Positions 12 to 64,000 of a DNA stretch of 64,000 bases are shown piece after piece. The translations under genes were made by a program, and so were the position numbers. Where the stretch lies: sequence record NC_000866.4; one strand, 5' to 3'. The notes beneath the pieces were generated by a model. The model had not been told where the DNA came from. It saw nothing but the letters and a program-made list of their open reading frames with translations, and did no database searches. Source of the DNA: Escherichia phage T4. Position 1 is the stretch's first letter, and each line of letters starts with the position of its first letter.

Positions 12-2189
12 TTAGGCCGCAAGGGCCTTCATAGTTTTAGCGATTTGGGAAACTTCATCATCACTTAAAGAGTTGCGATAACCGATGAAGTCGGAAACAA
101 TACGGAATTTCTTGGTAAACTCAGCAACCATTTTATCACTGTTTTTTGAAGCATTATTTGATAATACATCAAAAAGATTAGTTACTGTCCAAATGTCATG
201 ACCGATGGTATCTTTTCCACCATTAAAATATACACCCTGTAATGAACTAACCATATTAGCGAGTCGTGTATATTCTTCAGAAACTTCATCTATACTGAAG
301 TACTTCATCATAAAATCTAACTCAGGATACTTGATAATTTTATCAATATATCGTTTAGCTGAACTTGAATAACCTACATACTTATCATAATCTACATCAT
401 CAAAAGCATCTACATATAAATCACGCAAAGCTTCAAAAATACATTGGCACTGACCGAGTTCTTTTACCTTTTTCTGTAAAAGCGGACGAATAACATAAAA
501 TTCATTAATGCCAATAAGATTAGCCATACGAATCAAAATATTCATAGATGGATGACAAAGAGATGTAGTACCATCCATAGAGAAAATATCAGAACGATGC
601 ATATACGCTACATAACCAGTAATTTCATCTGCTTCTGATGTGAGGCGTAAATAATTCCTCTTTTCCCAGCGCCCGTCTTTAATTTCAAACTTAAACGCTG
701 TAGCAGCTTTAGGACGAGGAGCTTTACTTTTAACTACCTTTGGAATATAACTTTTTACTAAAGCTTCAATTTCTGACAAATAATGAATGTTAACTTCATC
801 ACTTTCAAACATCGCCATAATATCAGGAAGCAAATCAATCTGCGATTCTACTTCTGGATTAATAAACAGAAGACGTTCGTTATGATGAATATTCAAAGTG
901 TTATTAAATTCACTATCATCTAACGCACGTGCTAATCCACGGACAATATTAACACGATTTTTAATATTATCAATAACGATATTAATTTTTGTTGTATTAA
1001 TACCAAACAGACGATAACTTGATGCAACGGCTGAAGTTTCATGACTTTGCTTAATGCGCTTCAGTCGAGGGTCAAGATTTACTTCATACACAACTCCCGC
1101 GTTGCATAACTTACTGTCAGGTTCAAACATGCTCTGCATCTTTTTATATGACAGATTTTTAGTCGTGAATTTGACTGAATTACTAATCATATAATCTCGA
1201 GCAGAATACCCCATCTTCATCAATTCACGATATGTGTGACGAGGAGATGTAGATTCTTTAAATCGTTTTACATCTTCATTAAATGCTTTCTCACTGAGTT
1301 CTTTAACTCGTTCAATAATATTTTTACGAGTGCGATCATCCAGTGAAAGAGCCTCGCGAGATGGAGCAATATCAAGTGAACCCATTGGAAACTTAATGTA
1401 ATTCACTTCATTGCGAATGCTTAGCCAGTTACGGTCTCTAATAACACCATCGATAGGATAAACAATACCACCGTAGATAGCATATAATCCACCACGATCA
1501 GGCCAGTATCTTTCTGGATTTACACCGTAATAGTCATCAAAATCCGGAAAATAATCAATTTCGCGGTCAAGACCATTAATGATAGCCAAATCTTTGAACG
1601 GTCGCATGATATAAGAAACTTCATAAGCAAAGTTTCTAAAGTCTTTTTCTTCAACTGGAACTACGATTTCAATACCAGTTTTATCATCTGGACCCATTTC
1701 TTTTACGAATGTAGGTTTAATCTGTGGACCATCACCATCCATGTAAGCTACATAACCACGAATTTCACCTTTATGATACGAAGTAATACTAAACGTATCA
1801 GTATAACTAAACGGAGATTTAGAACCTAAACCAAATCCGCCAATAAAGTCATTAGATTCAGCTTTAGATGAACTGAAGTATGAATTATACAACCCAGGAG
1901 AATTATCATCACCTTGAATATCAAAATCACTCATACCCGGACCAAAATCTCGACAAACAAATCGTGGGTCTAAACGTCCAGGAACTTGTATGATAAATTT
2001 TTCAGGATTTCCATTAAGTGCATGAGCATCAATCATGTTAGTAATCAATTCACGGACTACTGCGCGAATCTTGTTTGTATACAAATCAGATGACAGAATT
2101 TTAAATACTTTAGGAGATGCTGTGATGCTAAATGCTTTTGATTTAGAACCATTACCAAGAATTGTTTCTTTTTCAGTGGTGATAATCAT
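12..2189 (-). CDS. rIIA: rIIA protein, 725 aa, GHKL-type ATPase-like N-terminal region
   Basis: 725-aa [11 protein letters not shown]..., ATG at 2187-2189; length and sequence match T4-type rIIA; motif [10 protein letters not shown]. Confidence 0.93.
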
Positions 2190-2199
2190 AATTTCCTCA

Positions 2200-2403
2200 T
2201 TAATTCATATTACGCTTAATAACTTCAGCAACTTCTAGTAGTTCATCTTTAGTTGCGGTGTCGGATTGAATTTTATCTCTAATATCTTTAAAGCGGGTTT
2301 TAAATTCTTCGGCTTCTCCCATATCGAAAAAGCGTTGAATGATTCTATATTCTCGATGAACTGCTTTATCAAAAAGTTCTAAATTTACTTTATATGATTT
2401 CAT
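2200..2403 (-). CDS. hypothetical small protein (rIIA.1 position)
   Basis: 67-aa ORF packed between rIIA and gene 60. Confidence 0.6.
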
Positions 2404-2457
2404 TTCAATATCCTCATTTGCCCAATTAATTATACCACATCCTTGTGGTAAAGTAAA

Positions 2458-2990
2458 CTACTGGCTCATCCATTCTTTACGAAGGTCAGCATTATCTCCC
2501 ATGAGCATTTCAAAAAGCTCTTTCCAGTTCTCAGGAAGTTTAACAACATCATATACTGGGTTTTGAATCATCTCACGATATTCAGATTTTTCCAAAGAGC
2601 CAAGTCCCTTAATATAACGGATGCTATGTTTAGGTAGAGCATCTTTGGCACTCTCATATTCAGCGACTGTATAAAACCATTCTTGTTTTTTACCGACCTG
2701 AGCGATGATTACAGGAGTTTTGACAAAGCGAATTCGTCCTTGCTCAAACAATTCTGGCCAATTACTAAAAAATCCGAGCAGAGAAGGATAAATAGAACCT
2801 AATCCAATAATCTCTTAATTATGAGGTATTTCTATAGATAGCCCGAAGGCTATCCATCGTGATCTGCGTCTGTCATAATAGCGACATTCGCATAGTTCAT
2901 TGAAGAGGATTTAATAGAACGACGAACATTGTTCTGCAATTTATATTTTTTCATATCAACGCTAGAAGAATCAATTTTTACAAATTTCAT
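2458..2990 (-). CDS. 60: DNA topoisomerase II subunit gp60, translated across a 50-nt coding gap
   Basis: Two ORF-track pieces (2850..3041 holding MKFVKIDSS...MTDADHDG then stop; 2458..2751 holding the C-terminal part) separated by the classic bypass sequence; ATG at 2988-2990. Confidence 0.9.
2803..2855 (-). other. translational bypass (hop) element: take-off GGA, UAG stop, UUCG-loop hairpin, landing GGA
   Basis: Minus-strand sequence GGA UAG CCUUCGGGCUAUCUAUAGAAAUACCUCAUAAUUAAGAGAUUAUU GGA read directly; take-off GGA at 2853-2855, stop at 2850-2852, landing GGA at 2803-2805. Confidence 0.88.
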
Positions 2991-3351
2991 TATACACCTC
3001 ATAGAACTTTTCATCAGGAATCCAACCGCGTTTAAATTCATTAAATGCTCGGCCGAATAATTTTGAATTCACAGTTATATTATTAACTGATTTCCATTTA
3101 GCAACTCCCGTTCGTTTATAATGATCGGGGTCATATTTCGTGACGTACCATTCATATAAATTTGGTATTAATTTTACAGCCTCTGGATTTGTCGCTGATT
3201 TATTATACCATGGTTTCGCTTTTTCAAGTTCAGCTGCTTTTGCAGTAGCAGCAACAGTATTTCCAACACCAACTAATTTTTCAGTTTTAATGCGTGGATC
3301 ATTAACATGAAGACGAAAAACTTCGCCCTTTTCATTTTTAAAGCATGTCAT
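2971..3351 (-). pseudogene. mobA: mobA-like truncated homing-endonuclease remnant
   Basis: 126-aa ORF between genes 60 and 39; upstream 3352-3777 has no intact ORF on either strand. Confidence 0.45.
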
Positions 3352-3777
3352 GCCTTTAATTCCAGGAAGCTTAACACCTTTATTAACACCGCATCATTCC
3401 TTTGGGTTAAATGATCCTTTAATTAATAAGGCGCATTTACCCGATTTAACTACTTCTCATTCAACAACTTTATCTTTCATAACGTTTTTTGACCATTCAG
3501 ATACTGCTCTTTGATGGCTAAATTCTAGCAATTTCACTATAATTTGCACTAGAACGTAAACTATTTTTCAGTGTTTCAACATTCTATTCATCGCATATGC
3601 CATTTCACGATTACGATGAATTTTATATAGTAGAAAATAGTGCTAAAAAGTGTTCACGAAAAGTCATGTTTCACCAAATTTTCGTTATCATCAGAACCTC
3701 CCATTGATCTTGGAAGGATATGATGAATTTCACCCTTAAATTTAGAAACGCGGGTTTTACCCCGCACTATTAAGTCA

Positions 3778-5328
3778 TTATAGATTTTTTCGTAATTCAC
3801 CTACTGTTATCCATTTACCATTAATCTGTACTTCATCATTTTCATTTACGATAATTGTATCGCCATTTAGCTCGAAAGTAAACCACTCGCCATCTTCTTT
3901 TTCTTCAAACGCTTTTTCACCGAGAACTAGACCAGTGATTGCGCAAATATCAAATAGTTCTTTGTTTTTAAGCATATCTGCATAAGACATACCCCAACTG
4001 TTGAGAACTTTACCACGCAATGGATAACCACCGTGAAGTTCTTTATCACGAACATCAATAAGATATCCGATAGCCGAATCACCCTCAGTCAAGAAAAGAG
4101 TAGTATCAGCATCTTTACCGCAAAGATTCGCTTTGATATGTTTATGAACCTTAGCTTTAGAAGCCTTTTTAGCTGCTTTAGTTTCTGCTGCTTTTTCTGC
4201 CGCCAATTTACGAGCCAAAGCAGCTTCAATAATCGGCATTAGAATTGCTTCATTATTTAGAATATCACGTGAAATCTTTTTAGCATCAAGTTGAATATGA
4301 CTACGAATTTCGCCAAATGGAGAAGTCAAACGCTCTTTAGTTTGACGAATCAATCGCATGTTTTTCATATCACGAACAAACATAACGATAGTCAAACATT
4401 CTTTGACACGTGCTTTAGTCACATCAATTTTGAACTTACGTTTGATTTGTGGAATAAGGTCTTCACAAATATCATCCATAGCGCAGTCAATGTGATGGCC
4501 ACCATTCTTAGTATGAATGTTATTGACGTATGTTAATTGACGAAAACCATCCGGTGAACGACCAACCGCAATAGAACAATTTTCTTGCTCTTGAACAATA
4601 GCATGTTCATCATACTGCCGTGCATATTTCTTAAAATTGCCCTGAACCTTTTTACCATTAAAGGTAAATTGAATATCAGGATAAACTACAGCAAGTGTCT
4701 GGAGACGATCCAGTGTAATGTCAAGATAAACTTGGGACAGCTCATTAGTTTCAAATGACATAAAATCAGGAATGAAAGTAACACGAGTTCCTTTCCATTT
4801 TCCAGGAATATCTTCCCATGATTTATTTTCCATGCCATTTGAACAACGAACTACAATATTATTTTGACCGTCGCCAGTTTCACCGACAAACATCACAGAA
4901 AAAATGTTTGTCAAACTAGAACCAACACCGTTCATACCGCCGGTGACGCGTTCTTTATCATCACCAAAGTTACCACCTGCTTTTGGAATAGTCCATGCGG
5001 CAACAGGACCAGGAATTTCTTCACCGGTAGGTGTTTTAACCATCGCTTGTGGAATACCGCGACCGTTATCTTCAACTGTTACTTGATTGTTTTTAATAGT
5101 AACATTAATTTTATTCGCGAATTTAAACTTAGTACGAATACCTTCATCTACTGAGTTATCGATAATTTCATCAATAAGCTTAACAAGACCAGGTACATAC
5201 TGAACACTTTCCCATTTACCAAACATAAAGCGCTCATGCGTTTCATTAGCAGAAGAGCCAATGTACATGCCACTACGCTTTTTGATATGTTCAATATCGC
5301 TCAGAATTTTAATTTCATTCTTAATCAT
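3778..5328 (-). CDS. 39: DNA topoisomerase II large subunit gp39 (GyrB-like ATPase)
   Basis: ORF MIKNEIKILSDIEHIKKRSGMYIGSS..., GHKL ATPase motifs; ORF-track start is GTG at 5329-5331, ATG at 5326-5328 gives 516 aa. Confidence 0.94.
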   Translation of the reverse strand: MIKNEIKILSDIEHIKKRSGMYIGSSANETHERFMFGKWESVQYVPGLVKLIDEIIDNSVDEGIRTKFKFANKINVTIKNNQVTVEDNGRGIPQAMVKTPTGEEIPGPVAAWTIPKAGGNFGDDKERVTGGMNGVGSSLTNIFSVMFVGETGDGQNNIVVRCSNGMENKSWEDIPGKWKGTRVTFIPDFMSFETNELSQVYLDITLDRLQTLAVVYPDIQFTFNGKKVQGNFKKYARQYDEHAIVQEQENCSIAVGRSPDGFRQLTYVNNIHTKNGGHHIDCAMDDICEDLIPQIKRKFKIDVTKARVKECLTIVMFVRDMKNMRLIRQTKERLTSPFGEIRSHIQLDAKKISRDILNNEAILMPIIEAALARKLAAEKAAETKAAKKASKAKVHKHIKANLCGKDADTTLFLTEGDSAIGYLIDVRDKELHGGYPLRGKVLNSWGMSYADMLKNKELFDICAITGLVLGEKAFEEKEDGEWFTFELNGDTIIVNENDEVQINGKWITVGELRKNL

Positions 5329-5397: not shown

Positions 5398-5595
5398 TTA
5401 TTTAAAACGAATAGTTGAATCCTTAAAGAACAGCCCAGAACATACTGTTCCTTCTACTTTCTGCCCGGTAGGTCCAATAGCACGAAATCCAGTATGCTGG
5501 AAATCATTTTCAGAGCAACCGAACCAATTATATCCAGTGATTTCAATATTAGTAAAACCACTTGAAGACAAAACTTTGGTTGCATTAATCAGCAT
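5398..5595 (-). CDS. hypothetical protein (39.1 position)
   Basis: 65-aa ORF followed by a UUCG-loop hairpin. Confidence 0.5.
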   Translation of the reverse strand: MLINATKVLSSSGFTNIEITGYNWFGCSENDFQHTGFRAIGPTGQKVEGTVCSGLFFKDSTIRFK

Positions 5596-5701
5596 CAGTA
5601 CTATTAATTAAAGACACTGCTAATACTAATGCTGCAATTGAACGACTAATATATTTCATAACTACCCTTTAAGCAAGTCGTAAAATCCATTATTCCCATG
5701 C

Positions 5702-5839
5702 TTAGGAAGCGGAAACTAACCGAACAGCCAGCCGATGACAATCAGGACATACACCAGTATCTCTTCCAGAAATTTTCTTGATTTTTTCGTATTCTTTTGC
5801 ACAGTCTTTGGATTGACATTTATAATCATAAAGCGGCAT
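5702..5839 (-). CDS. possible 45-aa zinc-ribbon protein (CxxC...CxxC)
   Basis: Translation gives MPLYDYKCQSKDCAKEYEKIKKISGRDTGVCPDCHRLAVR... only if one extra T is read in a T-run near 5820; the goF ORF-track coordinates imply my reading is 1 nt short in this interval. Confidence 0.35.
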   Translation of the reverse strand: MPLYDYKCQSKDCAKEYEKIKKISGRDTGVCPDCHRLAVRLVSAS

Positions 5840-5841
5840 AA

Positions 5842-6267
5842 TTATTCCTTAAAGTAAGCTTTCAACATCTGATATAAAGACCACGCCTGATCATTATTTT
5901 CAATAGTAACTTTCATGACTGGGAATTCTGTGAAATCTTCTATTTGTTCTTGCTCTTTCTCTTCCTGCTCTTGCTCTTCAACCGCCTGATATGGATTTTC
6001 CACTTCATCAAAGAACCCAGCTTCGTTAGTAGAGAGCCAGATAAAGTTTTCGTCAAGGATATCACCGCCGGCACAACGTTTGAGTACACCTATGGATGTC
6101 ATAATTTTAGTAGGACGCCCAAGATAATCAGCATCTAAAATTTTAAAAGGCTCCATACCTAAACGTCGTGCATAGATTCCGTTATCAGTATGGTCTTTAA
6201 TAAAATTTTCTTGAGCTTGTTTATTTTTAAATTGATACCATTTATTAACTTCAAATTTAATAGCCAT
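5842..6267 (-). CDS. goF: 141-aa protein, probably goF
   Basis: 141-aa [15 protein letters not shown]... at the goF position and length. Confidence 0.6.
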
Positions 6268-6482
6268 TAATAAATTTCCTTCCAGTAAGTTGTGCCGTCT
6301 TCAGTAATTTCACGAAATACACCATAAATTGGCTGTTTATCACCGACTTTCTCATACACATAAACAGAAGTCAAGTGAGTAAACTTGCTAGTATGTTCCT
6401 TTTGAACTACTACCAAATTTGGATCAAATAATACATCTTCAAATTCATCATTAGTGCAATTCTGAACAATTTTACGTTTCAT
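6267..6482 (-). CDS. cef: 71-aa protein, probably cef
   Basis: 71-aa ORF whose stop overlaps the goF start; synteny. Confidence 0.5.
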
Positions 6483-6652: not shown

Positions 6653-7141
6653 TTATGCATAGAGAGCATTGCTATAGTGTTTAATCCAACTTTCAGGAAT
6701 GACTTTGTATGTTCCTAAAAATACCACGTTGTACAACTTAACACCATCTTCTACCCATTGATCGGTAATGTATCCACACATAGCGCGAGTATAAACAACC
6801 CTTCCATCATCTTTAATAAAGTTAAATTCACAAGGAGCAATGAACTTGATAGCCTGACCGAGTTTCCACTTAAAGTCTACACCTACATGCGAAGTATCAA
6901 TCGTTTCAATTCCTTTAGCAGGAACAGCTTTTAAAAACGCAGACTCAAGAAATTTCGCACGAACATAGCCAAACTGGGGTTTAGACTTTCCATCTTTAGG
7001 AATGATACGCACTTTTACTTCAGAATCTTCATCTTTAACACCATGCTTAAGCTGAATGCTTACAACTTCGACCAATTTTCCTGCTGCTTTAGAACGGGAT
7101 TTATCAGATACACGAGCTAATTCACCAATATTAATAATCAT
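6653..7141 (-). CDS. motB: 162-aa protein, probably MotB
   Basis: 162-aa ORF with an early promoter upstream; synteny. Confidence 0.6.
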   Translation of the reverse strand: MIINIGELARVSDKSRSKAAGKLVEVVSIQLKHGVKDEDSEVKVRIIPKDGKSKPQFGYVRAKFLESAFLKAVPAKGIETIDTSHVGVDFKWKLGQAIKFIAPCEFNFIKDDGRVVYTRAMCGYITDQWVEDGVKLYNVVFLGTYKVIPESWIKHYSNALYA

Positions 7142-7185
7142 AGTTATCTCTCACTTGTTAAAAAGATTTTATACTCCACGGGACC

Positions 7186-7216
7186 ATTATACTCTGGTCC
7201 CAAGAGTTTGTAAACT
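7186..7216 (-). promoter_or_regulatory. early sigma70-type promoter (GTTTAC -35, TATAAT -10)
   Basis: Minus strand reads GTTTACaaactcttgggaccagagTATAAT upstream of 6653..7141. Confidence 0.6.
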
Positions 7217-7290
7217 ATTAATTCAAAATAGCTACCACTGCACTACGAGGAACTACGGAGTACTCTCCAGCATGAACTACGTTCAGAAGT

Positions 7291-7650
7291 TCAACGCCAT
7301 CTTCCAATCCATTGGTCAGTTACCCAACCACCAATCGGATTCGCAAATGGACGACGAATGTAAACTGCCTTACACAACAAATCAGTCGGGTCTTCAGGTT
7401 TTTCAATTTCTGTCAATAGATTAAAATCTTCTTCATAGATGATGAATGATGATACCCTTCCATAATAGTTTCTAATTTCCATGTACACTGTACCAATGAG
7501 AATTCCACTATTAACACTAATGACAGTAAAAGGATATCCGCCAGTTGTACCAAGAAGTTCCCAAAATTTGCTATCAGTCGTATTCGACATTGTCTGAAAA
7601 TCAATTTCAGATGGTTTTTTCATTTGATACGCAGTATTAATTTTAATCAT
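7291..7650 (-). CDS. hypothetical protein
   Basis: 119-aa ORF in the minus-strand array. Confidence 0.55.
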   Translation of the reverse strand: MIKINTAYQMKKPSEIDFQTMSNTTDSKFWELLGTTGGYPFTVISVNSGILIGTVYMEIRNYYGRVSSFIIYEEDFNLLTEIEKPEDPTDLLCKAVYIRRPFANPIGGWVTDQWIGRWR

Positions 7651-7660
7651 AATTTTCTCT

Positions 7661-11037: not shown

Positions 11038-11038
11038 A

Positions 11039-53943: not shown

Positions 53944-53945
53944 AA

Positions 53946-56445: not shown

Positions 56446-57208
56446 TATTAGACCTTTCATAATCTTCATTAAATTGTACAATCAATCGATGATAATTAGA
56501 TTTTGGATATCCTAATTTACTTATATAAGTTCCGAATGACCCACGTTTAGGTCTATTTAATTTAATCCATAACTTATAAAGTAAGTCATAGTCTTGCCAA
56601 TGTTTACCAGTTCTTTGTCTAATTTTAGATGAATTTGATTGTTTCTTTTTAGCTTCAAAATTATTCAAAGATTTTTTGACTGCAGCAGAGTGTTTTTCTT
56701 TAACTCCCGGTCGTTTAAAAGCAGCTTTCACCCCTTTAGATATTTTTTCTTTAACTTCCGGTTTGTTTTGTGCTTCTAACTGGGATTCTGAAATTTTAGC
56801 CCTTATTTCAGGAAGACTTAATGTTATCGAACGTTTTTCTCTGTATTCATTAGACTTCCACATTTCTTTCATTGTATTAGAATGTATTTTTGAAAATTTT
56901 TCTCTAACTAACTGATATCCTCTTGAAGTTAATTTGAGATTTCTTCCTAAAGAATCTTCTCCAAAATTATAAAATGACCACCATGCATAAATTAATCCAG
57001 GCGAATTGTAATGAATTTTAGCTAAAAGCCAATGGGCTATAAAATGCTCTCTAGCTGTTAATAAAACTAGATTATCAGAATCATCATTACCACCAATACA
57101 AGATGGAATAATATGATGCTTTTCCGTATAAAAATTTAATTTAGATTTATCTAATTTTCTGAGTTTTCCTTTCTTAATTAAATTATTATATACTTTAGTA
57201 TAATTCAT
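56429..57208 (-). CDS. mobD: HNH homing endonuclease MobD
   Basis: 259-aa ORF with HNH motif (HHIIPSCIGGNDDSDNLVLLTAREH). Confidence 0.8.
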   Translation of the reverse strand: MNYTKVYNNLIKKGKLRKLDKSKLNFYTEKHHIIPSCIGGNDDSDNLVLLTAREHFIAHWLLAKIHYNSPGLIYAWWSFYNFGEDSLGRNLKLTSRGYQLVREKFSKIHSNTMKEMWKSNEYREKRSITLSLPEIRAKISESQLEAQNKPEVKEKISKGVKAAFKRPGVKEKHSAAVKKSLNNFEAKKKQSNSSKIRQRTGKHWQDYDLLYKLWIKLNRPKRGSFGTYISKLGYPKSNYHRLIVQFNEDYERSNNENCS

Positions 57209-57282: not shown

Positions 57283-57828
57283 TCACTTTGAAATCATAGT
57301 TGGAATAACAGAATCAAGATAAGTCTTTAGTGCAATAGCTTCCTCTTTCTTTAATGTAATGATATGTGATCGAAAATCATCAATTTGACGAATAGATACT
57401 ACATCTCCCTCTTCATAGCATTTTGAAACATTTAAAATAGTTTCATCATTCTGATTACAGGAGTTAGTAATAATAGCATTACATTTTTTAAACCATTTTA
57501 AATTATGTTTTCTTTTAGTAGAATCATAAAAATATTTAATGTTAGTTATAAAATTATCCCAATTATTAATTGATAAGCACATTGACTCGCTTTTAATATT
57601 AAATCCTGGGCATGAAGAATAAAAATGAATTTTATGCTCATCATTAATGCTTACAATTTTATCAGTGTAAGCATATTCAATTTGGGTTAAACGAACAATT
57701 TCGCTAGGCGTAAAATATAACATGTCATCTTCTTGCGTCAAACGATACATGTTATTTACTTTTTCTATAGCCAATTCACCAAAAAGTGGACTAACTTCTA
57801 ATACTAGTCGTTTCGCCTCGCTCATCAT
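57283..57828 (-). CDS. hypothetical protein
   Basis: 181-aa ORF. Confidence 0.55.
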   Translation of the reverse strand: MMSEAKRLVLEVSPLFGELAIEKVNNMYRLTQEDDMLYFTPSEIVRLTQIEYAYTDKIVSINDEHKIHFYSSCPGFNIKSESMCLSINNWDNFITNIKYFYDSTKRKHNLKWFKKCNAIITNSCNQNDETILNVSKCYEEGDVVSIRQIDDFRSHIITLKKEEAIALKTYLDSVIPTMISK

Positions 57829-58154
57829 TACATACTCCTCTGAATCATATTAATAATGTTATTCACCAGATTATAAGTAAACATTGGGTAATTATATTGA
57901 ATCATCACATATATAACAAACAAAACTTTCATTCTCTTCTCCTTGGCAGTTGACAAGATTACTATACCATAATCTTGTCAACTTGTAAACCATTAAATGA
58001 CGTTTTCGATAAAATTTTGAAGCTTTGTATGAGCATCAACCATGATTTTCATTTCTTCCTTGGAAAAGCTGTGCCTCTTTCCCGAGAAGAACATTCATAG
58101 TCAGAAACTGCATTAGCATATTCTTCAATTAGCTTCATTAAAAACATCTGTTTT

Positions 58155-58349
58155 TCAGTTTTCATTATTCCACCTAATCATTTCAAGATATTGAACTAAC
58201 TTAGCTTTGGATTTATCCAAATCCCTTTTAGCTGCTTCTATACCGTCGTATGAATATCCTTCACAATGCTCAACTGCTAATTGATATGAATCTATTTCAA
58301 TATCATGCGCTAATTTAATGATTTTTTCAAACTGTTCGCGTGTTAGCAT
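58155..58349 (-). CDS. hypothetical small protein
   Basis: 64-aa ORF. Confidence 0.5.
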   Translation of the reverse strand: MLTREQFEKIIKLAHDIEIDSYQLAVEHCEGYSYDGIEAAKRDLDKSKAKLVQYLEMIRWNNEN

Positions 58350-58351
58350 AC

Positions 58352-58570
58352 TTAAACTCTCGTATTATGATCGATAATTTCATCAAGAAACATATCTAAC
58401 GCTTCTACAGCATTATTAACTTTAGCTTCAAATTCTTCAATACCTGATAAGGCAAAGTTAATGCGTTCCTCATCTGCTTTACGAATTAAAGCTACCAATT
58501 CCTTAATTTTATCCGCTTGTTCGATACTAATCATTATTCCACCACATATGAAAGAGAGAATATTGCACAC
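58352..58570 (-). CDS. hypothetical small protein
   Basis: 72-aa ORF. Confidence 0.5.
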
Positions 58571-58722
58571 GCCATGTGAGTTGCAACTTCATCACACATA
58601 TTATAACGTTTCTTAAGAAGTTCTACAAGTTCTTCACTAGTAACTTCATCCATGTCGACGAAAAAATCACCATTAATGATGACGTAGATATTTCCTTCTT
58701 GATTGAGTGCTTCAATTTTCAT
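58534..58722 (-). CDS. hypothetical small protein
   Basis: [21 protein letters not shown]... (ATG at 58720-58722 behind SD GAGGAGA). Confidence 0.5.
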
Positions 58723-58818: not shown

Positions 58819-59205
58819 TTATTCGAGGGAAAGAAGATACTTACTCTGGTAAAACATTCCAGTAATATCATCTATCGTGCTTTGGATGGCTGGAGGCATT
58901 TCTTTATAAATGCTGTTAGATTGGTCTAGTATGCGATCAATCATTTTAATTGTGTCGGTAGGAAGTTTACTGGCATCTGGAATTGAAGGCGTGTATTTTC
59001 GACCAGAATACCCCAAATATTGCTCACCAAATTTATCAATCAAATCTGGCAACTCGGAAAAAATAAAATCGTATGCTTTGTGTCTAGCATAACTTTTAGT
59101 TTCAAAATGTGCAGAATGAAAATAAGCTTGTGCAGCCATTAATAAACCTAAGTATTCATCTGCCTTTGAAGGTTTTCCACTTTGTGAAAAGTCGCTGAAT
59201 TTCAT
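58819..59205 (-). CDS. hypothetical protein
   Basis: 128-aa ORF, start overlaps the rI stop. Confidence 0.55.
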   Translation of the reverse strand: MKFSDFSQSGKPSKADEYLGLLMAAQAYFHSAHFETKSYARHKAYDFIFSELPDLIDKFGEQYLGYSGRKYTPSIPDASKLPTDTIKMIDRILDQSNSIYKEMPPAIQSTIDDITGMFYQSKYLLSLE

Positions 59206-59495
59206 TCAGTCTCCAATTTAATGTTCATAATTCTAGCGTATGATTGTGCCATCTCCGCGCCTCGCTCTATACATTCAAAATCAGAAGAGCACGGGTCATT
59301 TTTATAGGTCGTTCTCATAAAACTATAGAATTGTTCAGACGATTCTACGCTTTTATTTTCAAAAAGCATATAAACGTGCCTAATACCAGATTCCATAAAT
59401 TTATCAAAATGAGGATCGACATTCGCTTCAATCGATGGAGATAAAACAAATGACAATCCTAGCATGGCAAAAAGTGCTGTTGCTTTTAAGGCCAT
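59202..59495 (-). CDS. rI: lysis-inhibition regulator rI (periplasmic antiholin)
   Basis: 97-aa ORF MALKATALFAMLGLSFVLSPSIEANVDPHFDKF... with N-terminal signal-anchor. Confidence 0.85.
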   Translation of the reverse strand: MALKATALFAMLGLSFVLSPSIEANVDPHFDKFMESGIRHVYMLFENKSVESSEQFYSFMRTTYKNDPCSSDFECIERGAEMAQSYARIMNIKLETE

Positions 59496-59507
59496 AAAGG
59501 CCTCCTA

Positions 59508-59720
59508 TCATTTTTGTCCTGTATTTACTTTGTGCCGATGCACGGCCTTAACTTTATCAAGGTATTTTTCAAAATTTCGCAATCTAGTATAGTCTGCCGG
59601 AGATTGGTTGAGTGATACTTCTCGACGCAAAGCTGAAATGATATTTCCAACTTCCCTACGAATTTCATCTAATTGAAGAACAGTAAGATTGCGAAGTTGC
59701 TTTTCAGTTAATTGTAGCAT
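59508..59720 (-). CDS. hypothetical small protein
   Basis: 70-aa ORF. Confidence 0.5.
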
Positions 59721-59762: not shown

Positions 59763-60344
59763 CTAACCGAGCTTTTTAGTTAATTCATTCCAATGTTTTC
59801 TACACAAAGAAACATAAATTTCATCACCAATACAAATTTGATTACCTTCTTTAACTGGTGTTCCATCTTCCATTAATCGAGCTGTCATAATCGCTTTTTT
59901 ACCACAATGACAAACTGCTTTTAGTTCAATAAGTTTATCTGCAATCGCTAAAAGTTCTTTAGAACCTTCAAATAATTTTCCAGCGAAATCAGTCCTTAGC
60001 CCATAAGCCATAACAGGAACATTATATGTATCAACAATTCGGCTCAATTGATGCACCTGTTCAGTTTTTAAAAACTGAGCTTCATCTACAAATACGCAAT
60101 GAATATCTTTTTGTGCTTCAGCCCATTTATAGAACTCGAAAATATCCATATCATCTGTAATAATATTCGCTTCCTGCTTAATTCCAATGCGAGAAACGAC
60201 TTCACAGACAGAATCGCGAGTATCAATAGCAGGCTTAAGAACTAATACACTCATTCCACGTTCTTTATAATTATGTGCAGCAATCAAAAGAGAAGCAGAT
60301 TTTCCAGCATTCATTGCTGCATAAGTAAAAATTAAACTCGCCAT
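59763..60344 (-). CDS. tk: thymidine kinase
   Basis: 193-aa ORF, P-loop AMNAGKS, C-terminal zinc CxxC. Confidence 0.94.
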   Translation of the reverse strand: MASLIFTYAAMNAGKSASLLIAAHNYKERGMSVLVLKPAIDTRDSVCEVVSRIGIKQEANIITDDMDIFEFYKWAEAQKDIHCVFVDEAQFLKTEQVHQLSRIVDTYNVPVMAYGLRTDFAGKLFEGSKELLAIADKLIELKAVCHCGKKAIMTARLMEDGTPVKEGNQICIGDEIYVSLCRKHWNELTKKLG

Positions 60345-60345
60345 C

Positions 60346-60534
60346 TTAGTCCTTAGTTAAATTTTCTAAATATGTTTCTAAATCATTTTCAGCTTTATCG
60401 ATAGATTTTACTAATTCGTAATATGTTTCGGCATCTCCATATTCAGAAGATATTTCAAAAGACAAATCCTTTTCTAAACTAATAATTTCACCAACTAAAA
60501 ATAATATTTCGTTCTTTTGTTCGCGAGTAATCAT
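60346..60534 (-). CDS. hypothetical small protein
   Basis: 62-aa ORF. Confidence 0.5.
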   Translation of the reverse strand: MITREQKNEILFLVGEIISLEKDLSFEISSEYGDAETYYELVKSIDKAENDLETYLENLTKD

Positions 60535-60722
60535 AAGGAATTTATATAATCAATGAGTTCTTGTTCTTTATTATCGAATTCTTTAGAAAGTTCTTCGTAC
60601 TCGTTTGCGCTAAAAGGACCGCATTCATTACAAACTTTTTCCAATTCACTATTTTTATCCATAACTTCGTGGATAAGAGAAAAGAGTGTGTCTTTTTGTT
60701 CTTTGCTTAAACTCATAACCAT
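60531..60722 (-). CDS. hypothetical small protein
   Basis: 63-aa ORF, paralogous in style to 60346..60534 (...SKEQKDTLFSL / ...TREQKNEILFL). Confidence 0.5.
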   Translation of the reverse strand: MVMSLSKEQKDTLFSLIHEVMDKNSELEKVCNECGPFSANEYEELSKEFDNKEQELIDYINSL

Positions 60723-60940
60723 GTCACCTTTAAGCAGTATTCTTCTACATGCTGTTTACGACCTTTCTTATCAATAAAGGTATATTCAACGAATGTTCCA
60801 ATGTAGTCTTTATCTACATCATGTGGACTATTAATTGGACATTTAGTGCGACAAATGCGTTCCCATTGACGAATAATTACTGCCTTATTCTTTGGGTCAT
60901 ATGGATGTGGATAATGTATATTCATAATAATGGTTCCCAA
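60713..60940 (-). CDS. hypothetical small protein
   Basis: 75-aa ORF. Confidence 0.5.
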   Translation of the reverse strand: MGTIIMNIHYPHPYDPKNKAVIIRQWERICRTKCPINSPHDVDKDYIGTFVEYTFIDKKGRKQHVEEYCLKVTWL

Positions 60941-61389
60941 TCAACAATCACAATTTCTAATTTAGAGGAATATGTATCTAAAATCCCCTCAATAATATCC
61001 CAGTTCCCTTTACCTATGCCTGCACCAATCCTAGGCATATAGATTGTAGGTTTAATCAGTTTATTTTCACCAAACTCATTTAATTCTAACATACAATTCA
61101 TTAAAGCGGAATACTCAAAATTTGGCCCTGGTTGAAATTGAGTATAAAGATTGAAGCAGTAAGCTTTATGAGTCCTAAAGTATTTTTCATAGACTGAGTA
61201 AGAACCGAGTTTAGTTACATCACCCCATTCAGTCTGTAATTTATCAGCTTCCAAAATTTTAGGGAAAGCTTTGGTTAATTGACCCGCTACGCCTGAACCC
61301 ATAGTATGAAAACAATTACATCCATGTGCAATATTTTTACCTTCAGCGAAAAGGGCGACAATATCGCCCTTGATATATTTTACAATCAT
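60922..61389 (-). CDS. macro-domain protein (predicted ADP-ribose binding/hydrolase)
   Basis: 155-aa ORF with macro-domain signatures KGDIV...IAHGCNC..MGSGVAG and PRIGAGIGKG. Confidence 0.72.
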   Translation of the reverse strand: MIVKYIKGDIVALFAEGKNIAHGCNCFHTMGSGVAGQLTKAFPKILEADKLQTEWGDVTKLGSYSVYEKYFRTHKAYCFNLYTQFQPGPNFEYSALMNCMLELNEFGENKLIKPTIYMPRIGAGIGKGNWDIIEGILDTYSSKLEIVIVDWEPLL

Positions 61390-61733
61390 CTAGTACTCAA
61401 TCCTCGATTATAAGAATCTACCAAACGGTCAACCATTGAATGACAAGCGGCTTTATCTTTCTCCTCCGCAACTGAACATTCTAAGGTATTCCACTTTTTA
61501 GCATATCGTTTTAACAATGTATCGTTTTTGTATCTGCTTGATTTATCTCTTTCTCCGTCTTTATATGCATATATTAATTTCTGTGCAAATTCAGCTTGGC
61601 ATGCCTTATTTTTCCCACAATAATCTGCCGCAGTGCGGTTTACATATTCTCTAATTTCAGTATATGATGTATCTGCTGACGCAGAAGCAGAAAATGAAAT
61701 TAATCCTATACATAAAACCAAAATTTTAGTCAT
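61386..61733 (-). CDS. secreted 115-aa protein (vs position)
   Basis: 115-aa ORF with N-terminal signal peptide (MTKILVLCIGLISFSASASA). Confidence 0.6.
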   Translation of the reverse strand: MTKILVLCIGLISFSASASADTSYTEIREYVNRTAADYCGKNKACQAEFAQKLIYAYKDGERDKSSRYKNDTLLKRYAKKWNTLECSVAEEKDKAACHSMVDRLVDSYNRGLSTR

Positions 61734-62271
61734 TTACTATTTCCAAAAGTTTATTATTTTTAAGGTAATTAGCCTTTTCTAGGACTTCAGAAGCATATTT
61801 AGAACCTGCTTTAACATTCCATCCCGAATTATAAGAGGATATTGCTTTTCTTATATCGCCCTTATGTATATTTAACCAATAAGAAAGTTCAATGTACGCC
61901 CAGGAAGCTGAATTGGATCGTTTATTCAACATTCTTTTTATTTCAGCATCGGTCATATTATAACCAAGTTCCTTAACTCTTGCTCGCATAGTAGGCAAAT
62001 AATTTTGGAACATTCCGTAGGCGTGATGCTTTGGTTTAGATTTTAAATTAACTCCGCCAGAGCTTTCTTGCCATAAAATGGCAGCCATTATATGACCTAA
62101 TCCGCTCTTGTGGATATTTTTGTGTGTTTTATATTTTCCATCCTTAGAAAATTGTTCCCCGAATTGATACGCGTAACGCATGTTATCGAGTTGGACATTA
62201 CTGAAAGTATGCTCGGAGCTATGTGCCATCATTGAAATGGCCAATAGACCAGCGAGTAGTGCTTTTCTCAT
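61726..62271 (-). CDS. secreted lytic-transglycosylase-like protein
   Basis: 181-aa ORF with signal peptide and SLT-like motif (AAILWQESSGG). Confidence 0.6.
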   Translation of the reverse strand: MRKALLAGLLAISMMAHSSEHTFSNVQLDNMRYAYQFGEQFSKDGKYKTHKNIHKSGLGHIMAAILWQESSGGVNLKSKPKHHAYGMFQNYLPTMRARVKELGYNMTDAEIKRMLNKRSNSASWAYIELSYWLNIHKGDIRKAISSYNSGWNVKAGSKYASEVLEKANYLKNNKLLEIVND

Positions 62272-62278: not shown

Positions 62279-62740
62279 TCATTGAGTTTTAATTACTGCT
62301 TTAGAAGCCTTTCCTGGTAAACGACGACTGTTGATAATTGCCATCCTACATTGAAGTGACGGGTCTTTGAACTTCTCGTTAGGTTTACAAACTGTAAATC
62401 CAAGCCAAAGATTTCCATCTGTGATTTCTAAACGTCCAGGACGATATTCAACCCCATCAATAAAATCCTCGTCAATGTCAGGACGCGGAGGCATACTCAG
62501 GAATTCATTAACTTCTAAAACATGGTCTTTTATTTTATGGAATAATTCAAAAACGTATGTCTCATCAATCTCCCGTTGAATTGCGCGATCAAGAAGATGT
62601 TGAGAATATTTTAGATGAAACGATGAGACTCCTGCTGCTTTTGATGCCTCACGAATCTCATTGTTAATTTGACGAAACTCCGACTCAAAGTGACGACGAA
62701 GCTTATTTCGACGGATAAAAACTTCTGTATTGATAGTCAT
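62279..62740 (-). CDS. regB: endoribonuclease RegB
   Basis: 153-aa ORF MTINTEVFIRRNKLRRHFESEFRQINNEIREA... Confidence 0.88.
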   Translation of the reverse strand: MTINTEVFIRRNKLRRHFESEFRQINNEIREASKAAGVSSFHLKYSQHLLDRAIQREIDETYVFELFHKIKDHVLEVNEFLSMPPRPDIDEDFIDGVEYRPGRLEITDGNLWLGFTVCKPNEKFKDPSLQCRMAIINSRRLPGKASKAVIKTQ

Positions 62741-62768: not shown

Positions 62769-62797
62769 TTATACCACAGTCAAGAGGAAAAGTAAAC
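62769..62797 (-). promoter_or_regulatory. early sigma70-type promoter upstream of regB
   Basis: Minus strand GTTTACttttcctcttgactgtgGTATAAT. Confidence 0.6.
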
Positions 62798-62799
62798 AG

Positions 62800-63078
62800 T
62801 TATTCTTTAAATCTAATCAATTTATTCATAGACTTTGAAACTTCGGCACGAACCTCATGTAGATTTTTGAGCTGTTCAAGACGCTGCGTATAGTAAGCAA
62901 TTTCATCTTCTTCGAGACAGTCCTGCGAATCTTCTTTAAGATAACGTGCATAGTCCTGGAAAGCGTTACGGACTACTTCCTGGAAGTCATCAAGACTTTG
63001 AATTTTCTTAGGAGCAACAGATACACGACGAGGGGCAGTATAATACTCATAACCAAACCCTGCGCTTAATTGAGCCAT
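62800..63078 (-). CDS. hypothetical protein (vs.3 position)
   Basis: ORF 62800..63120; likely ATG at 63076-63078 ([14 protein letters not shown]...) overlapping the upstream stop. Confidence 0.5.
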
Positions 63079-63380
63079 TAGTATTTTTCCTCTGGTTGGA
63101 ACACTGCACGACAAGCCCACATACTGGCTTCTTTGAGTTTCGTTTTAGCAATAGTTAACTGATCGAGACTTTCAGCATAATTCTTCGCGAATTCACAGTC
63201 TTCGCAATTATCTAGTGCTTCCCAGAATTCATCATATAAAGCATCAAAGATAAGTCCTAAACGAACTTCAGCGTCTTTAATAGCATTTACTTTACCGATT
63301 TTCTCTTCAGTATGTGGTTTATAACCCTTAATATCTTCAATCATATTTGACTTCCTCACCAGTACATAATACGTATTCAA
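63078..63380 (-). CDS. acb2: probable Acb2-like anti-CBASS cyclic-nucleotide sponge (vs.4 position)
   Basis: ORF-track start is TTG; first in-frame ATG gives about 88 aa ([17 protein letters not shown]...); assignment by synteny and from memory. Confidence 0.55.
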
Positions 63381-63556
63381 CTAAACGAATAGGTTCATGA
63401 ATGCCATAGCCTTGAACAGAAATTTCTGTCGTAGGATAAATTCCATCAATATCACCCATATTCCACGCTTCATTAAATTGCTGTTCGCCTGAGTTACTAA
63501 ACCACTCGCGAAAGCATTTAGCACATCTTCAGAACCTTCAATAATTATCTTTGCCA

Positions 63557-63919
63557 TTACAAACTTTCAGTAAAGGTACGAGCGATAACGTCGCGCTGCT
63601 GTTCCGGAGTCAGAGAGTTAAAGCGAACTGCATAACCGGATACACGGATGGTCAGCTGCGGATATTTTTCCGGATGCTTAACTGCATCTTCCAGAGTTTC
63701 ATGACGCAGAACGTTAACGTTCAGGTGTTGACCACCTTCAATTTTAACTGTAGGTTGTGGCTCAATTTCAATTTCACGGGCATGCAAACCATAGAAAATT
63801 TCTGGGTCTACAAAAGAGTCCTCTTTAAAGGTTTTAGAGACAATAATTCGTGCTTGAATACCATCTTCAAAATAAATAGTACCTTTATGTGTGCCTTCAA
63901 GAATTTGATATGCTTTCAT
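63557..63919 (-). CDS. GrcA/YfiD-like autonomous glycyl-radical cofactor
   Basis: 120-aa ORF ending ...[31 protein letters not shown] with the glycyl-radical motif RVSGY. Confidence 0.85.
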
Positions 63920-64000
63920 ATAAACCTCAATTAGAAAATAAATTTATCCAAGATTGTTCTTTAATTAAAAATGGCTCAGAATCATATGCCATTAAACTTT

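What the first reader, a model, noticed from the sequence alone, without database searches (positions are those of the whole stretch)
12..64000. Window is collinear with the bacteriophage T4 early region (rIIA to the vs cluster)
Gene order, protein lengths and N-terminal sequences of more than 40 ORFs match T4-type proteins (rIIA 725 aa, gp43 898 aa, gp41 475 aa, UvsX 391 aa, Dda 439 aa, Soc 80 aa, Dmd 60 aa and so on), and the hallmark gene 60 bypass and nrdD intron are present. This sets expectations: most of the content is described, so novelty has to be looked for in uncharacterised ORFs.
Basis: partly seen in the sequence, partly recalled or inferred. Interest (0 to 1): 0.3.

Follow-up and report, generated by a model that had tools for sequence, protein, structure and literature searches.

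The report
First 64 kb of phage T4
The window is the first 64,000 bases of the long-studied bacteriophage T4 reference genome, so almost everything in it is already described; the one practical caution is that this old reference text carries about 80 probable sequencing errors that distort a dozen small genes.

Summary
The window is not just collinear with T4. It aligns end to end, in one gap-poor piece starting at record position 1, with every complete T4 genome in the phage collection (99.86% identity, no indel longer than 1 nt, no substituted block).

Six protein variants private to the window are exactly the GenBank/RefSeq T4 proteins (AAD42xxx / NP_0496xx) on a 168,903-bp contig. The window is therefore nt 1-64000 of AF158101 / NC_000866.

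The gene 60 50-nt translational bypass and the 1,033-nt nrdD group I intron carrying I-TevII are present and intact.

Four independent T4 resequencings agree against the window at 81 sites. T2 and T6 side with the resequenced allele at all 64 testable sites. These are best read as legacy sequencing errors, and they break 12 ORFs, including mobA.

The DNA that is accessory relative to T2/T6 is mainly the seven homing-endonuclease cassettes, plus b-gt, motB.1/.2, 49.3 and some lineage-specific blocks.

Already known; low interest.

The parts
1..11 (.). rIIA-rIIB junction; conventional zero point of the T4 map
   Evidence: Window position 1 aligns to record position 1 of T4 records. The map convention is from my own knowledge.
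12..2189 (-). rIIA, 725 aa
   Evidence: The exact sequence equals AAD42647.1 / NP_049616.1. A compensating -1/+1 pair at 644 and 661 gives a private RNYLR stretch at residues 511-515.
2200..2403 (-). rIIA.1, 67 aa
   Evidence: Identical to T4T.
2458..2802 (-). Gene 60, second coding segment (114 aa, starts LGSIY)
2803..2852 (-). Gene 60 50-nt coding gap bypassed by the ribosome: UAG stop, UUCG-loop hairpin, landing GGA
   Evidence: The sequence is read directly. Length and codons are, the hairpin fold (-17.5 kcal/mol, z -2.8), and uniqueness in the window. It is annotated as the bypass region.
2853..2990 (-). Gene 60, first coding segment (46 aa, ends DHDG on take-off codon GGA 2855-2853)
   Evidence: The fused 160-aa product aligns without a gap to residues 472-605 of the unsplit T2 gp39.
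2971..3800 (-). mobA (HNH homing endonuclease). In this text it is fragmented into a 126-aa ORF (2971-3351, 'gp60.1') and a 48-aa HNH N-terminal ORF (3654-3800) by 11 window-private extra bases at 3450-3667.
   Evidence: It is an intact 272-aa ORF in T4T and in more than 200 contigs. The HNH match is weak.
3778..5328 (-). [quoted passage not shown]
   Evidence: Residues 1-473 align to T2 gp39 1-473.
5398..5839 (-). 39.1 and 39.2, lying in a cluster of 15 window-private differences (5587-5766). The window has a 65-aa gp39.1 where all other genomes have 86 aa.
5842..6482 (-). goF and cef
   Evidence: Identical to T4T.
6653..8161 (-). motB, motB.1 (frame broken at 7304 in this text) and motB.2
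   Evidence: motB.1/.2 are absent from T2.
8225..9388 (-). dexA, dexA.1, dexA.2
9410..10729 (-). dda helicase, 439 aa
   Evidence: The window-private variant with six substitutions equals AAD42555.1 / NP_049632.1.
10726..11785 (-). dda.1 and srd
11908..13130 (-). modA and modB ADP-ribosyltransferases
13198..15232 (-). modA.2, modA.3, modA.4, srh, mrh, mrh.1, mrh.2
15331..15573 (-). soc, small outer capsid protein, 80 aa
   Evidence: Pfam Soc, 185 bits.
15606..16280 (-). segF homing endonuclease (accessory; absent from T2 and T6)
   Evidence: No Pfam hit at E<=0.001, so the name rests on the record annotation.
16270..16785 (-). Gene 56 dCTPase; oriA is annotated inside it
16846..17625 (-). dam DNA adenine methyltransferase, 259 aa (absent from T6)
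17738..17938 (+). dam.1, one of only two plus-strand CDSs in the window
17935..18963 (-). Gene 61 primase
18966..19758 (-). 61.1 and 61.2 (AdfA, anti-DarT factor A)
   Evidence: Pfam AdfA, 450 bits. Most of 61.2 is missing in T2.
19758..20051 (-). sp (spackle)
20112..20369 (-). 61.4 = tifA, inhibitor of ToxN
   Evidence: PMC9391042, read.
20371..20553 (-). dmd, 60 aa
   Evidence: Pfam Dmd, 157 bits.
20612..22039 (-). Gene 41 replicative helicase, 475 aa
22049..22393 (-). Gene 40
22386..23561 (-). uvsX recombinase, 391 aa
23570..24247 (-). segA GIY-YIG homing endonuclease (accessory)
   Evidence: Pfam GIY-YIG and NUMOD3. Absent from T2 and T6.
24400..25455 (-). b-gt beta-glucosyltransferase, 351 aa (T2 and T6 carry a different transferase here)
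25479..26219 (-). Gene 42 dCMP hydroxymethylase
26227..27013 (-). 42.1, imm and imm.1 (imm.1 frame broken at 26639 in this text)
27197..29893 (-). Gene 43 DNA polymerase, 898 aa
29972..30340 (-). regA translational repressor
30342..32603 (-). Genes 62 and 44 (clamp loader) and 45 (sliding clamp)
32659..33246 (-). rpbA and 45.2
33302..36584 (-). Genes 46, 46.1, 46.2, 47 and 47.1 (recombination nuclease)
36624..37826 (-). a-gt alpha-glucosyltransferase, 400 aa
   Evidence: Pfam AGT, 862 bits.
37885..38679 (-). mobB HNH homing endonuclease (accessory)
   Evidence: Pfam NUMOD1 and HNH. Absent from T2 and T6.
38731..39616 (-). a-gt.2 to a-gt.5
39600..40157 (-). Gene 55, late sigma factor
40240..42453 (-). 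55.1 to 55.9 and nrdH. 55.7 (41671-41757) is on the plus strand. 55.1, 55.3 and 55.9 have broken frames in this text.
42446..42916 (-). nrdG
42906..43538 (-). mobC HNH homing endonuclease (accessory; T6 has segH at this site)
43535..44814 (-). nrdD exon 2
44815..45847 (-). nrdD group I intron, 1,033 nt
   Evidence: Rfam RF00028, 105.3 bits against a gathering score of 50, at 45652-45883. The boundaries come from the uninterrupted T2 nrdD. The 5' exon ends in U and the intron ends in G. The spliced NrdD is 605 aa and 99.7% identical to T2 NrdD.
44836..45612 (-). I-TevII homing endonuclease ORF inside the intron, 258 aa
   Evidence: Pfam shows only sub-threshold SegE_GIY-YIG and NUMOD1 matches.
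45848..46385 (-). nrdD exon 1
46382..47382 (-). Gene 49 (endonuclease VII) and pin
47366..48131 (-). 49.1, 49.2 and 49.3 (49.3 absent from T2 and T6)
48128..48936 (-). nrdC thioredoxin, nrdC.1 and nrdC.2
48933..55320 (-). nrdC.3 to nrdC.10, eight ORFs. Most have no assigned function. nrdC.3 and nrdC.4 are paralogues. nrdC.5 is linked to overcoming Dsr1. nrdC.6 and nrdC.10 have broken frames in this text.
55435..56445 (-). nrdC.11, with an RlaP-type nucleotidyltransferase domain
   Evidence: Pfam RlaP, 46.6 bits against a cut-off of 23.
56429..57208 (-). mobD homing endonuclease (accessory)
   Evidence: No Pfam hit, so the name rests on the record annotation.
57283..58722 (-). mobD.1 to mobD.5 (mobD.2a frame broken at 58064 in this text)
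58819..59720 (-). rI.-1, rI and rI.1
59763..61389 (-). tk, tk.1 to tk.3, and tk.4 (macro domain)
61386..62271 (-). vs and vs.1 (SLT domain)
62279..62740 (-). regB endoribonuclease
   Evidence: Pfam REGB_T4, 231 bits.
62800..63919 (-). vs.3, vs.4 (Acb2/Tad1 hairpin domain), vs.5 (frame broken at 63508 in this text) and vs.6 (glycine-radical domain). The block is absent from T6.
63927..64000 (-). vs.7, 3' part only; the gene runs off the window end

Best explanation
The window is nucleotides 1-64000 of the bacteriophage T4 reference genome (GenBank AF158101 / RefSeq NC_000866, 168,903 bp), in the standard map orientation starting at the rIIA/rIIB junction.

It carries about 120 genes, from rIIA to the start of vs.7. 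All but two lie on the minus strand. They encode the well-studied replication, recombination, nucleotide-metabolism, DNA-modification and host-takeover functions.

Two hallmark T4 oddities are present. The first is the gene 60 50-nt translational bypass, part of the mobA insertion that splits the topoisomerase gene. The second is the self-splicing group I intron in nrdD, which carries I-TevII.

The window differs from modern T4 genome sequences at 81 private positions: 50 substitutions and 31 single-base indels. These are best explained as errors in the 1980s-2003 composite Sanger sequence rather than biology.

What is shown: the identity and collinearity, the exact match of private protein variants to the RefSeq proteins, the intact bypass and intron anatomy, and the private, derived status of the 81 differences.

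What is inferred: that those differences are sequencing artefacts, and that bypassing and splicing operate as described in the T4 literature.
For: The window aligns in a single HSP to four independent T4 genomes at 99.86-99.87% identity, from record position 1.

The six window-private protein variants I looked up occur in the 15-billion-protein collection only as AAD42647/NP_049616, AAD42555/NP_049632, AAD42462/NP_049621, AAD42553/NP_049647, AAD42463/NP_049622 and AAD42507/NP_049619. These are rIIA, Dda, gp39, Dam, the 65-aa gp39.1 and the 126-aa gp60.1. Each is on two contigs, the longest 168,903 bp.

Of 96 variable sites, 81 are window-private: T4T, MT984581, KJ477684 and OZ035787 all agree against the window, and all 31 window-versus-T4T indels are among them. 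At all 64 of these sites where T2 and/or T6 have homologous DNA, the outgroup carries the resequenced allele and never the window's.

The extra bases in mobA are isolated C or G, not in homopolymers. Three missing bases are a G or C dropped from GGGCC-GAAG-GCCC hairpins, and the resequenced text restores perfect stems there, which is typical of gel compression.

Subedi & Barr 2021 (PMC8573959) independently report 172-175 variations between AF158101 and three T4 sublines, and attribute them to artefacts in the RefSeq entry.

The intron is.
Against: The reference record itself is not in the searchable phage collection. Nucleotide-level identity to AF158101 therefore could not be measured directly and is inferred from six exact protein matches plus the contig length.

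Some of the 50 private substitutions could be genuine differences in the historical stocks and mutant strains that different laboratories sequenced piecemeal. The outgroup test shows they are derived and private, not that they are errors.
Confidence: 0.96

Rival explanations
1. The 81 window-private differences are real polymorphisms of the historical T4 stocks (T4D, T4B and laboratory mutants) that were sequenced piecemeal. They are not sequencing errors.
For: The reference was assembled from many laboratories' clones between 1981 and 2003 (PMC8573959). Modern sublines do differ from each other at a few sites: 15 non-private variable sites in this window.
Against: Four independent modern sequences agree against the window at all 81 sites. 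T2 and T6 agree with them at 64 of 64 testable sites. All 31 indels are private and break 12 ORFs that are intact in every relative. The indel contexts look like gel artefacts: isolated extra C's, and G/C bases lost inside GC hairpins. Modern sublines differ from one another by only about 13 sites genome-wide.
Confidence: 0.1
2. The window comes from a very close T4 relative or another T4 subline (for example RB55, RB59, T4T or GT7) rather than from the RefSeq record.
For: RB55 and RB59 match at 99.7-100%, and several T4 sublines at 99.8-100%.
Against: None of those records matches at 100% over the first 25 kb. The window's private protein variants are found only under the AF158101 / NC_000866 protein accessions.
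Confidence: 0.03
3. The window is a T4-like mosaic phage with substituted or inserted accessory blocks relative to T4. This is the scenario the first reader's check was designed to detect.
For: None found.
Against: There is one uninterrupted HSP over 64,000 nt against four T4 genomes, with no indel longer than 1 nt.
Confidence: 0.01

Closest known systems
Bacteriophage T4 reference genome, GenBank AF158101.6 / RefSeq NC_000866.4, positions 1-64000
   Same: Same start point and orientation, same gene order, and exact identity of the six private protein variants tested, including the artefactual 65-aa gp39.1 and 126-aa gp60.1.
   Different: Nothing detected. Direct nucleotide comparison was not possible because the record is absent from the collection.
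Resequenced T4 sublines: T4T HM137666, T4-Hancock MT984581, T4 'wild' KJ477684, OZ035787
   Same: Fully collinear at 99.86-99.87% identity. 85 of 117 mapped proteins are identical.
   Different: 81 window-private sites. mobA is an intact 272-aa ORF in the sublines but fragmented in the window. 39.1, 39.2, motB.1, imm.1, 55.1, 55.3, 55.9, nrdC.6, nrdC.10, mobD.2a and vs.5 have different frames.
Phages T2 (LC348380) and T6 (MH550421), other Tequatrovirus species
   Same: Same backbone order from rIIA onward. 84-86% of the window aligns at about 96% identity.
   Different: They have an unsplit 605-aa gene 39, with no mobA, no gene 60 and no bypass. Their nrdD is uninterrupted, with no intron and no I-TevII. 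Both lack segF, segA, mobB, mobC, mobD, b-gt and 49.3. T2 also lacks motB.1/.2 and most of 61.2. T6 lacks dam and vs.3-vs.7 at this position.

Membership tests
Tequatrovirus T4 (the species; T4 genome segment) | Nucleotide identity above the 95% species-level threshold over the compared length | tested here: met
   99.86% over 64,000 nt against four T4 genomes. The threshold is the ICTV convention, from my own knowledge.
Tequatrovirus T4 (the species; T4 genome segment) | Unbroken gene order from rIIA to the vs cluster | tested here: met
   Single HSP. All 117 mapped CDSs are in the same order and on the same strand.
RefSeq / GenBank T4 record AF158101 / NC_000866 | Carries the record's private sequence variants | tested here: met
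   Six of six private protein variants match exactly the AAD42xxx / NP_0496xx entries on a 168,903-bp contig.
RefSeq / GenBank T4 record AF158101 / NC_000866 | 100% nucleotide identity to record positions 1-64000 | not testable with these tools
   The record is not in the phage collection.
Gene 60 programmed translational bypass | Matched take-off and landing GGA codons 50 nt apart, with a UAG stop immediately after the take-off codon | tested here: met
   GGA at 2855-2853, UAG at 2852-2850, and a 50-nt gap ending in GGA at 2805-2803.
Gene 60 programmed translational bypass | Stable stem-loop at the take-off site | tested here: met
   A 10-bp stem with a UUCG loop spans the take-off GGA and the UAG. 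MFE is -17.5 kcal/mol and z is -2.8.
Gene 60 programmed translational bypass | The reading frame is restored so that the product is continuous with the homologous unsplit protein | tested here: met
   The 46-aa and 114-aa segments together align without a gap to T2 gp39 residues 472-605 across the junction DHDG|LGSIY.
Gene 60 programmed translational bypass | Ribosomes actually hop over the gap, with the nascent-peptide signal acting | not testable with these tools
   The KKYKLQNNVRRSIKSSS stretch is present in the 46-aa segment. Its role is from the literature (my own knowledge).
Group I self-splicing intron (Rfam RF00028) | Covariance-model match above the gathering score | tested here: met
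   105.3 bits against 50, E = 2.8e-26, with the full model matched.
Group I self-splicing intron (Rfam RF00028) | 5' exon ends in U, intron ends in G, and removal restores the host ORF | tested here: met
   Exon 1 ends ...GAGU and the intron ends ...CAUUG. Removing the 1,033 nt gives a 605-aa NrdD that is 99.7% identical to T2 NrdD.
Group I self-splicing intron (Rfam RF00028) | Self-splicing activity | not testable with these tools
   Established experimentally for the T4 nrdD (sunY) intron in the literature (my own knowledge).
Homing endonuclease genes (GIY-YIG 'seg' and HNH 'mob') | Catalytic-domain profile match | tested here: inconclusive
   segA matches GIY-YIG (37 bits, above cut-off). 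mobB and mobC match HNH above cut-off. mobA's HNH match and I-TevII's SegE_GIY-YIG match are just below cut-off. segF and mobD have no Pfam hit.
Homing endonuclease genes (GIY-YIG 'seg' and HNH 'mob') | Present or absent as discrete cassettes between conserved genes in close relatives | tested here: met
   All seven (mobA, segF, segA, mobB, mobC, I-TevII, mobD) fall in blocks absent from both T2 and T6, with conserved flanks.

The most novel reading that the evidence does not exclude
One or more of the ORFs in this stretch that still lack any family or structural relative may encode an unrecognised counter-defence or host-takeover factor. The candidates are the nrdC.3/nrdC.4 paralogues, nrdC.6, nrdC.7, nrdC.8, 49.2, 49.3 and motB.2. 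This has recently happened for their neighbours 61.2 (AdfA), 61.4 (TifA), vs.4 (Acb2-type) and nrdC.5 (needed against Dsr1). It would be a property of individual ORFs, not of the collinearity finding itself.
Probability: 0.3. Interest if true: 0.35.

Novelty: already known. Interest (0 to 1): 0.04.

Why it matters
The finding only sets context, and its value is calibration. Any feature flagged elsewhere in this window has to be judged against the complete T4 literature.

Anything 'odd' in 12 ORFs is probably an artefact of about 80 legacy errors in the reference text that many pipelines still use. The 12 are mobA, 39.1, 39.2, motB.1, imm.1, 55.1, 55.3, 55.9, nrdC.6, nrdC.10, mobD.2a and vs.5. 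Typical false signals would be a pseudogene, a frameshift, a truncated or fused ORF, or an unusual start.

Using a resequenced T4 genome, such as MT984581 or HM137666, avoids these false signals.

Tried and rejected
I tried to fetch NC_000866 and AF158101 for a direct diff, but they are not in the collection. An exact-protein look-up took its place.

An Rfam scan of the whole window found only the group I intron. ARAGORN found no tRNA genes, as expected because the T4 tRNA cluster lies beyond 64 kb.

The sigma-70 consensus scan over 1-60000 found no more sites than shuffles (101 vs 91.5, 100 vs 88.3, 87 vs 86.1). It therefore cannot support the 'early region' label in this AT-rich DNA. Terminator-like hairpins were about twice the expected number.

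Pfam, PHROGs, NCBIfam and PDB sequence searches gave nothing informative for nrdC.3, nrdC.4, nrdC.6, nrdC.7 or nrdC.8, nor for motB.2, 49.2 or 49.3 apart from a PHROG label 'ribonucleotide reductase' on 49.2 that I did not verify. nrdC.5 matched only DUF7235 and nrdC.10 only sub-threshold P-loop/STAND domains. I ran no further search on these ORFs, because they are outside the question of this finding.

I considered whether the indels could be homopolymer slippage ('contingency loci'). I rejected this because most are isolated bases outside runs, and the window has no A/T run of 8 or more and no G/C run of 6 or more.

Full report

Yes. Megablast of window 1-25000, 25001-50000 and 50001-64000 against 50,697 annotated phage records returned T4 records as the best hits. 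KJ477686, KJ477684, MT984581, HM137666 'T4T' and OZ035787 each matched with 100% coverage in a single piece at 99.8-100% identity, and window position 1 aligned to record position 1.

A full-length alignment to T4T is one HSP covering window 1-64000 and T4T 1-63989. It shows 99.864% identity, 56 substitutions and 31 gaps, each of one base. There is no broken synteny and no indel longer than 1 nt.

I mapped the 117 simple CDSs of the T4T annotation onto the window:
- 85 translate identically.
- 19 have the same length with a few substitutions.
- 13 differ in frame or stop.

GC content is 30-38%, and GC skew is negative throughout. That fits 115 of the 117 CDSs lying on the minus strand.

**2. 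Which T4 sequence is it?**

No record in the collection is 100% identical over the first 25 kb. NC_000866 and AF158101 are not in the collection.

I aligned four independent T4 genomes to the window: T4T, T4-Hancock MT984581, T4 'wild' KJ477684 and OZ035787. Of 96 variable positions, 81 are private to the window, meaning all four genomes agree with each other against it. All 31 window-versus-T4T single-base indels are among these.

I then looked up six window-private protein variants by exact sequence:
- rIIA with the RNYLR stretch
- Dda with six substitutions
- gp39
- Dam
- a 65-aa gp39.1
- a 126-aa 'gp60.1'

Each exists in the 15-billion-protein collection only as the GenBank/RefSeq T4 entry: AAD42647/NP_049616, AAD42555/NP_049632, AAD42462/NP_049621, AAD42553/NP_049647, AAD42463/NP_049622 and AAD42507/NP_049619. 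Each is on a contig of 168,903 bp. The window is therefore nt 1-64000 of AF158101 / NC_000866.

**3. What are the 81 private differences?**

T2 and T6 serve as outgroups. At all 64 private sites where at least one of them has homologous DNA, the outgroup carries the resequenced allele and never the window's. The rest lie in T4-specific DNA, mostly mobA.

The differences cluster in two places. At 3450-3667 the window has 11 extra bases, mostly isolated C's, which fragment mobA. At 5587-5766 there are 15 differences in 39.1/39.2.

The indels are mostly not in homopolymer runs. Three of the window's missing bases (27182, 31902, 40826) are a G or C dropped from GGGCC-GAAG-GCCC-type hairpins, and the resequenced text restores a perfect stem there. 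That is the signature of band compression on sequencing gels.

Subedi & Barr 2021 (PMC8573959) independently found 172-175 variations between AF158101 and three T4 sublines, against only about 13 among the sublines themselves. They concluded the RefSeq entry contains artefacts. The sub-line polymorphisms they list reappear at the expected window positions, including rIIA nt 222, gene 39 nt 475, rI.-1 179dupG and tk.4 nt 106.

My reading is that these are legacy sequencing errors, with about 0.85-0.9 confidence for the set as a whole. A minority of the substitutions could be real differences of the strains originally sequenced.

The consequence is that 12 ORFs have wrong frames in this text: mobA, 39.1, 39.2, motB.1, imm.1, 55.1, 55.3, 55.9, nrdC.6, nrdC.10, mobD.2a and vs.5. 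The thirteenth discrepancy, in b-gt, runs the other way. T4T has a private nonsense change, and the window's 351-aa b-gt is intact.

**4. The hallmark elements**

*Gene 60.* Reading the minus strand, the sequence is ...GAT GGA TAG CCTTCGGGCTATC...ATTATTGGA TTA GGT.
- The take-off codon GGA is at 2855-2853, followed immediately by UAG.
- The gap is exactly 50 nt (2852-2803) and ends in the landing GGA.
- The coding segments give 46 + 114 = 160 aa.
- The fused product aligns without a gap to residues 472-605 of the unsplit 605-aa gp39 of T2, straight across the junction DHDG|LGSIY.

The take-off region folds into a 10-bp stem with a UUCG loop (-17.5 kcal/mol, z -2.8). T2, T6, RB32 and RB14 all have the unsplit gene. 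The block 2794-3910, which holds the bypass, mobA and the split, is absent from T2 and T6. This is consistent with the published view that mobA and the bypass form a mobile cassette (my own knowledge).

*nrdD.* Rfam finds one family in the whole window, the group I intron, at 105.3 bits against a gathering score of 50 (45652-45883, minus strand). Using T2's uninterrupted nrdD as a guide, the intron is 1,033 nt (45847 to 44815). The 5' exon ends in U and the intron ends in G. The spliced NrdD is 605 aa and 99.7% identical to T2 NrdD. I-TevII (44836-45612) lies inside the intron.

**5. Accessory DNA**

Against T2 and T6, 84-86% of the window aligns at about 96% identity. The blocks that do not align are:

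| Window block | Content | Missing from |
|---|---|---|
| 2794-3910 | bypass + mobA | T2 and T6 |
| 7226-8128 | motB.1/.2 | T2 (T6 lacks only 7332-7672) |
| 15611-16306 | segF | T2 and T6 |
| 16826-17724 | dam | T6 only |
| 19177-19756 | most of 61.2 | T2 only |
| 23556-25496 | segA + b-gt | T2 and T6 |
| 37818-38678 | mobB | T2 and T6 |
| 42917-43517 | mobC | T2 and T6 |
| 44815-45849 | intron + I-TevII | T2 and T6 |
| 47831-48126 | 49.3 | T2 and T6 |
| 56450-57257 | mobD | T2 and T6 |
| 62799-64000 | vs.3-vs.7 | T6 only |

All seven homing-endonuclease genes fall in such blocks. Pfam supports segA, mobB and mobC. It is marginal for mobA and I-TevII and silent for segF and mobD.

**6. What remains uncharacterised**

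Pfam assigns:
- 61.2 to AdfA
- vs.4 to the Acb2/Tad1 hairpin domain
- tk.4 to the Macro domain
- vs.1 to SLT
- vs.6 to Gly_radical
- nrdC.11 to RlaP

nrdC.10 shows only sub-threshold P-loop/STAND similarity. 61.4 is TifA, an inhibitor of ToxN, and nrdC.5 is needed to overcome Dsr1 in ECOR17 (PMC9391042).

motB.2, 49.3, nrdC.3/.4 (paralogues in phrog_1435), nrdC.6, nrdC.7 and nrdC.8 have no informative match in Pfam, PHROGs or NCBIfam, and 49.2 has only a PHROG label 'ribonucleotide reductase' that I did not verify. The PDB sequence searches I ran, on nrdC.4.5.6 and .10, also found nothing. These ORFs are the only place in the window where something new could still hide, and they are separate questions from this finding.

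**7. Verdict**

The content is already known, and interest is very low. The useful by-product is a list of 81 probable reference errors and the 12 ORFs they distort, so that downstream readers do not mistake them for biology.

Noticed in passing
window 3450-3667 (mobA): Eleven isolated extra bases, mostly C, are private to the window. They split mobA into a 126-aa ORF and a 48-aa ORF. All resequenced T4 genomes and more than 200 other contigs have an intact 272-aa HNH endonuclease ORF.
   Followed up: yes
window 5587-5766 (39.1/39.2): This is a dense cluster of 15 window-private differences, including 5 indels. The window's gp39.1 is 65 aa, against 86-89 aa in every other genome in its protein cluster.
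   Followed up: yes
window 27169-27184, 31895-31910, 40820-40835: The window lacks one G or C inside GGGCC-GAAG-GCCC-type hairpins. The resequenced text restores perfect stems there, the classic gel-compression pattern.
   Followed up: yes
window 24433 (b-gt) in T4T HM137666; window 59027 (rI.-1) in KJ477684: These are sub-line-private lesions in other T4 records, not in the window. T4T has a nonsense change that shortens b-gt from 351 to 340 aa. KJ477684 has a +1 frameshift in rI.-1, matching the 179dupG reported for T4-Barr and T4-Rao.
   Followed up: partly
window 48933-50915 (nrdC.3, nrdC.4): These two adjacent ORFs of 308 and 333 aa are paralogues (both phrog_1435). They have no Pfam or NCBIfam match, and a PDB sequence search with nrdC.4 found no relative. 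They begin a 6.4-kb run (to 55320) of eight ORFs that mostly lack a known function.
   Followed up: partly
window 54351-56445 (nrdC.10, nrdC.11): This is an adjacent pair: a protein with sub-threshold P-loop/STAND NTPase similarity, and a protein with an RlaP-type nucleotidyltransferase domain (46.6 bits, above cut-off). It could be an RNA-repair-like or counter-defence module. I did not pursue it.
   Followed up: no
window 63557-63919 (vs.6) and 63078-63344 (vs.4): vs.6 carries a glycine-radical domain (65 bits), resembling a spare glycyl-radical module, and it lies in the same window as nrdD/nrdG. vs.4 matches the Acb2/Tad1 hairpin domain, which belongs to cyclic-nucleotide sponges. The whole vs.3-vs.7 block is missing from T6 at this position.
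   Followed up: partly
protein clusters returned: Partial T4-type proteins (Dda, gp39, Dam, MobA, gp39.1) are filed in NCBI as 'Enterococcus faecalis' (WP_4114..., MFP9...), on contigs of 0.3-4 kb. This is most likely T4-like phage contamination of a bacterial assembly.
   Followed up: no
window 15303-15324, 36607-36626, 38715-38734, 55414-55433, 58797-58814: These are GC-rich hairpins with UUCG/GAAG tetraloops followed by T-runs in intergenic positions. Some are perfectly palindromic and score as terminators on both strands. Terminator-like sites are about twice as frequent as in shuffled sequence.
   Followed up: no
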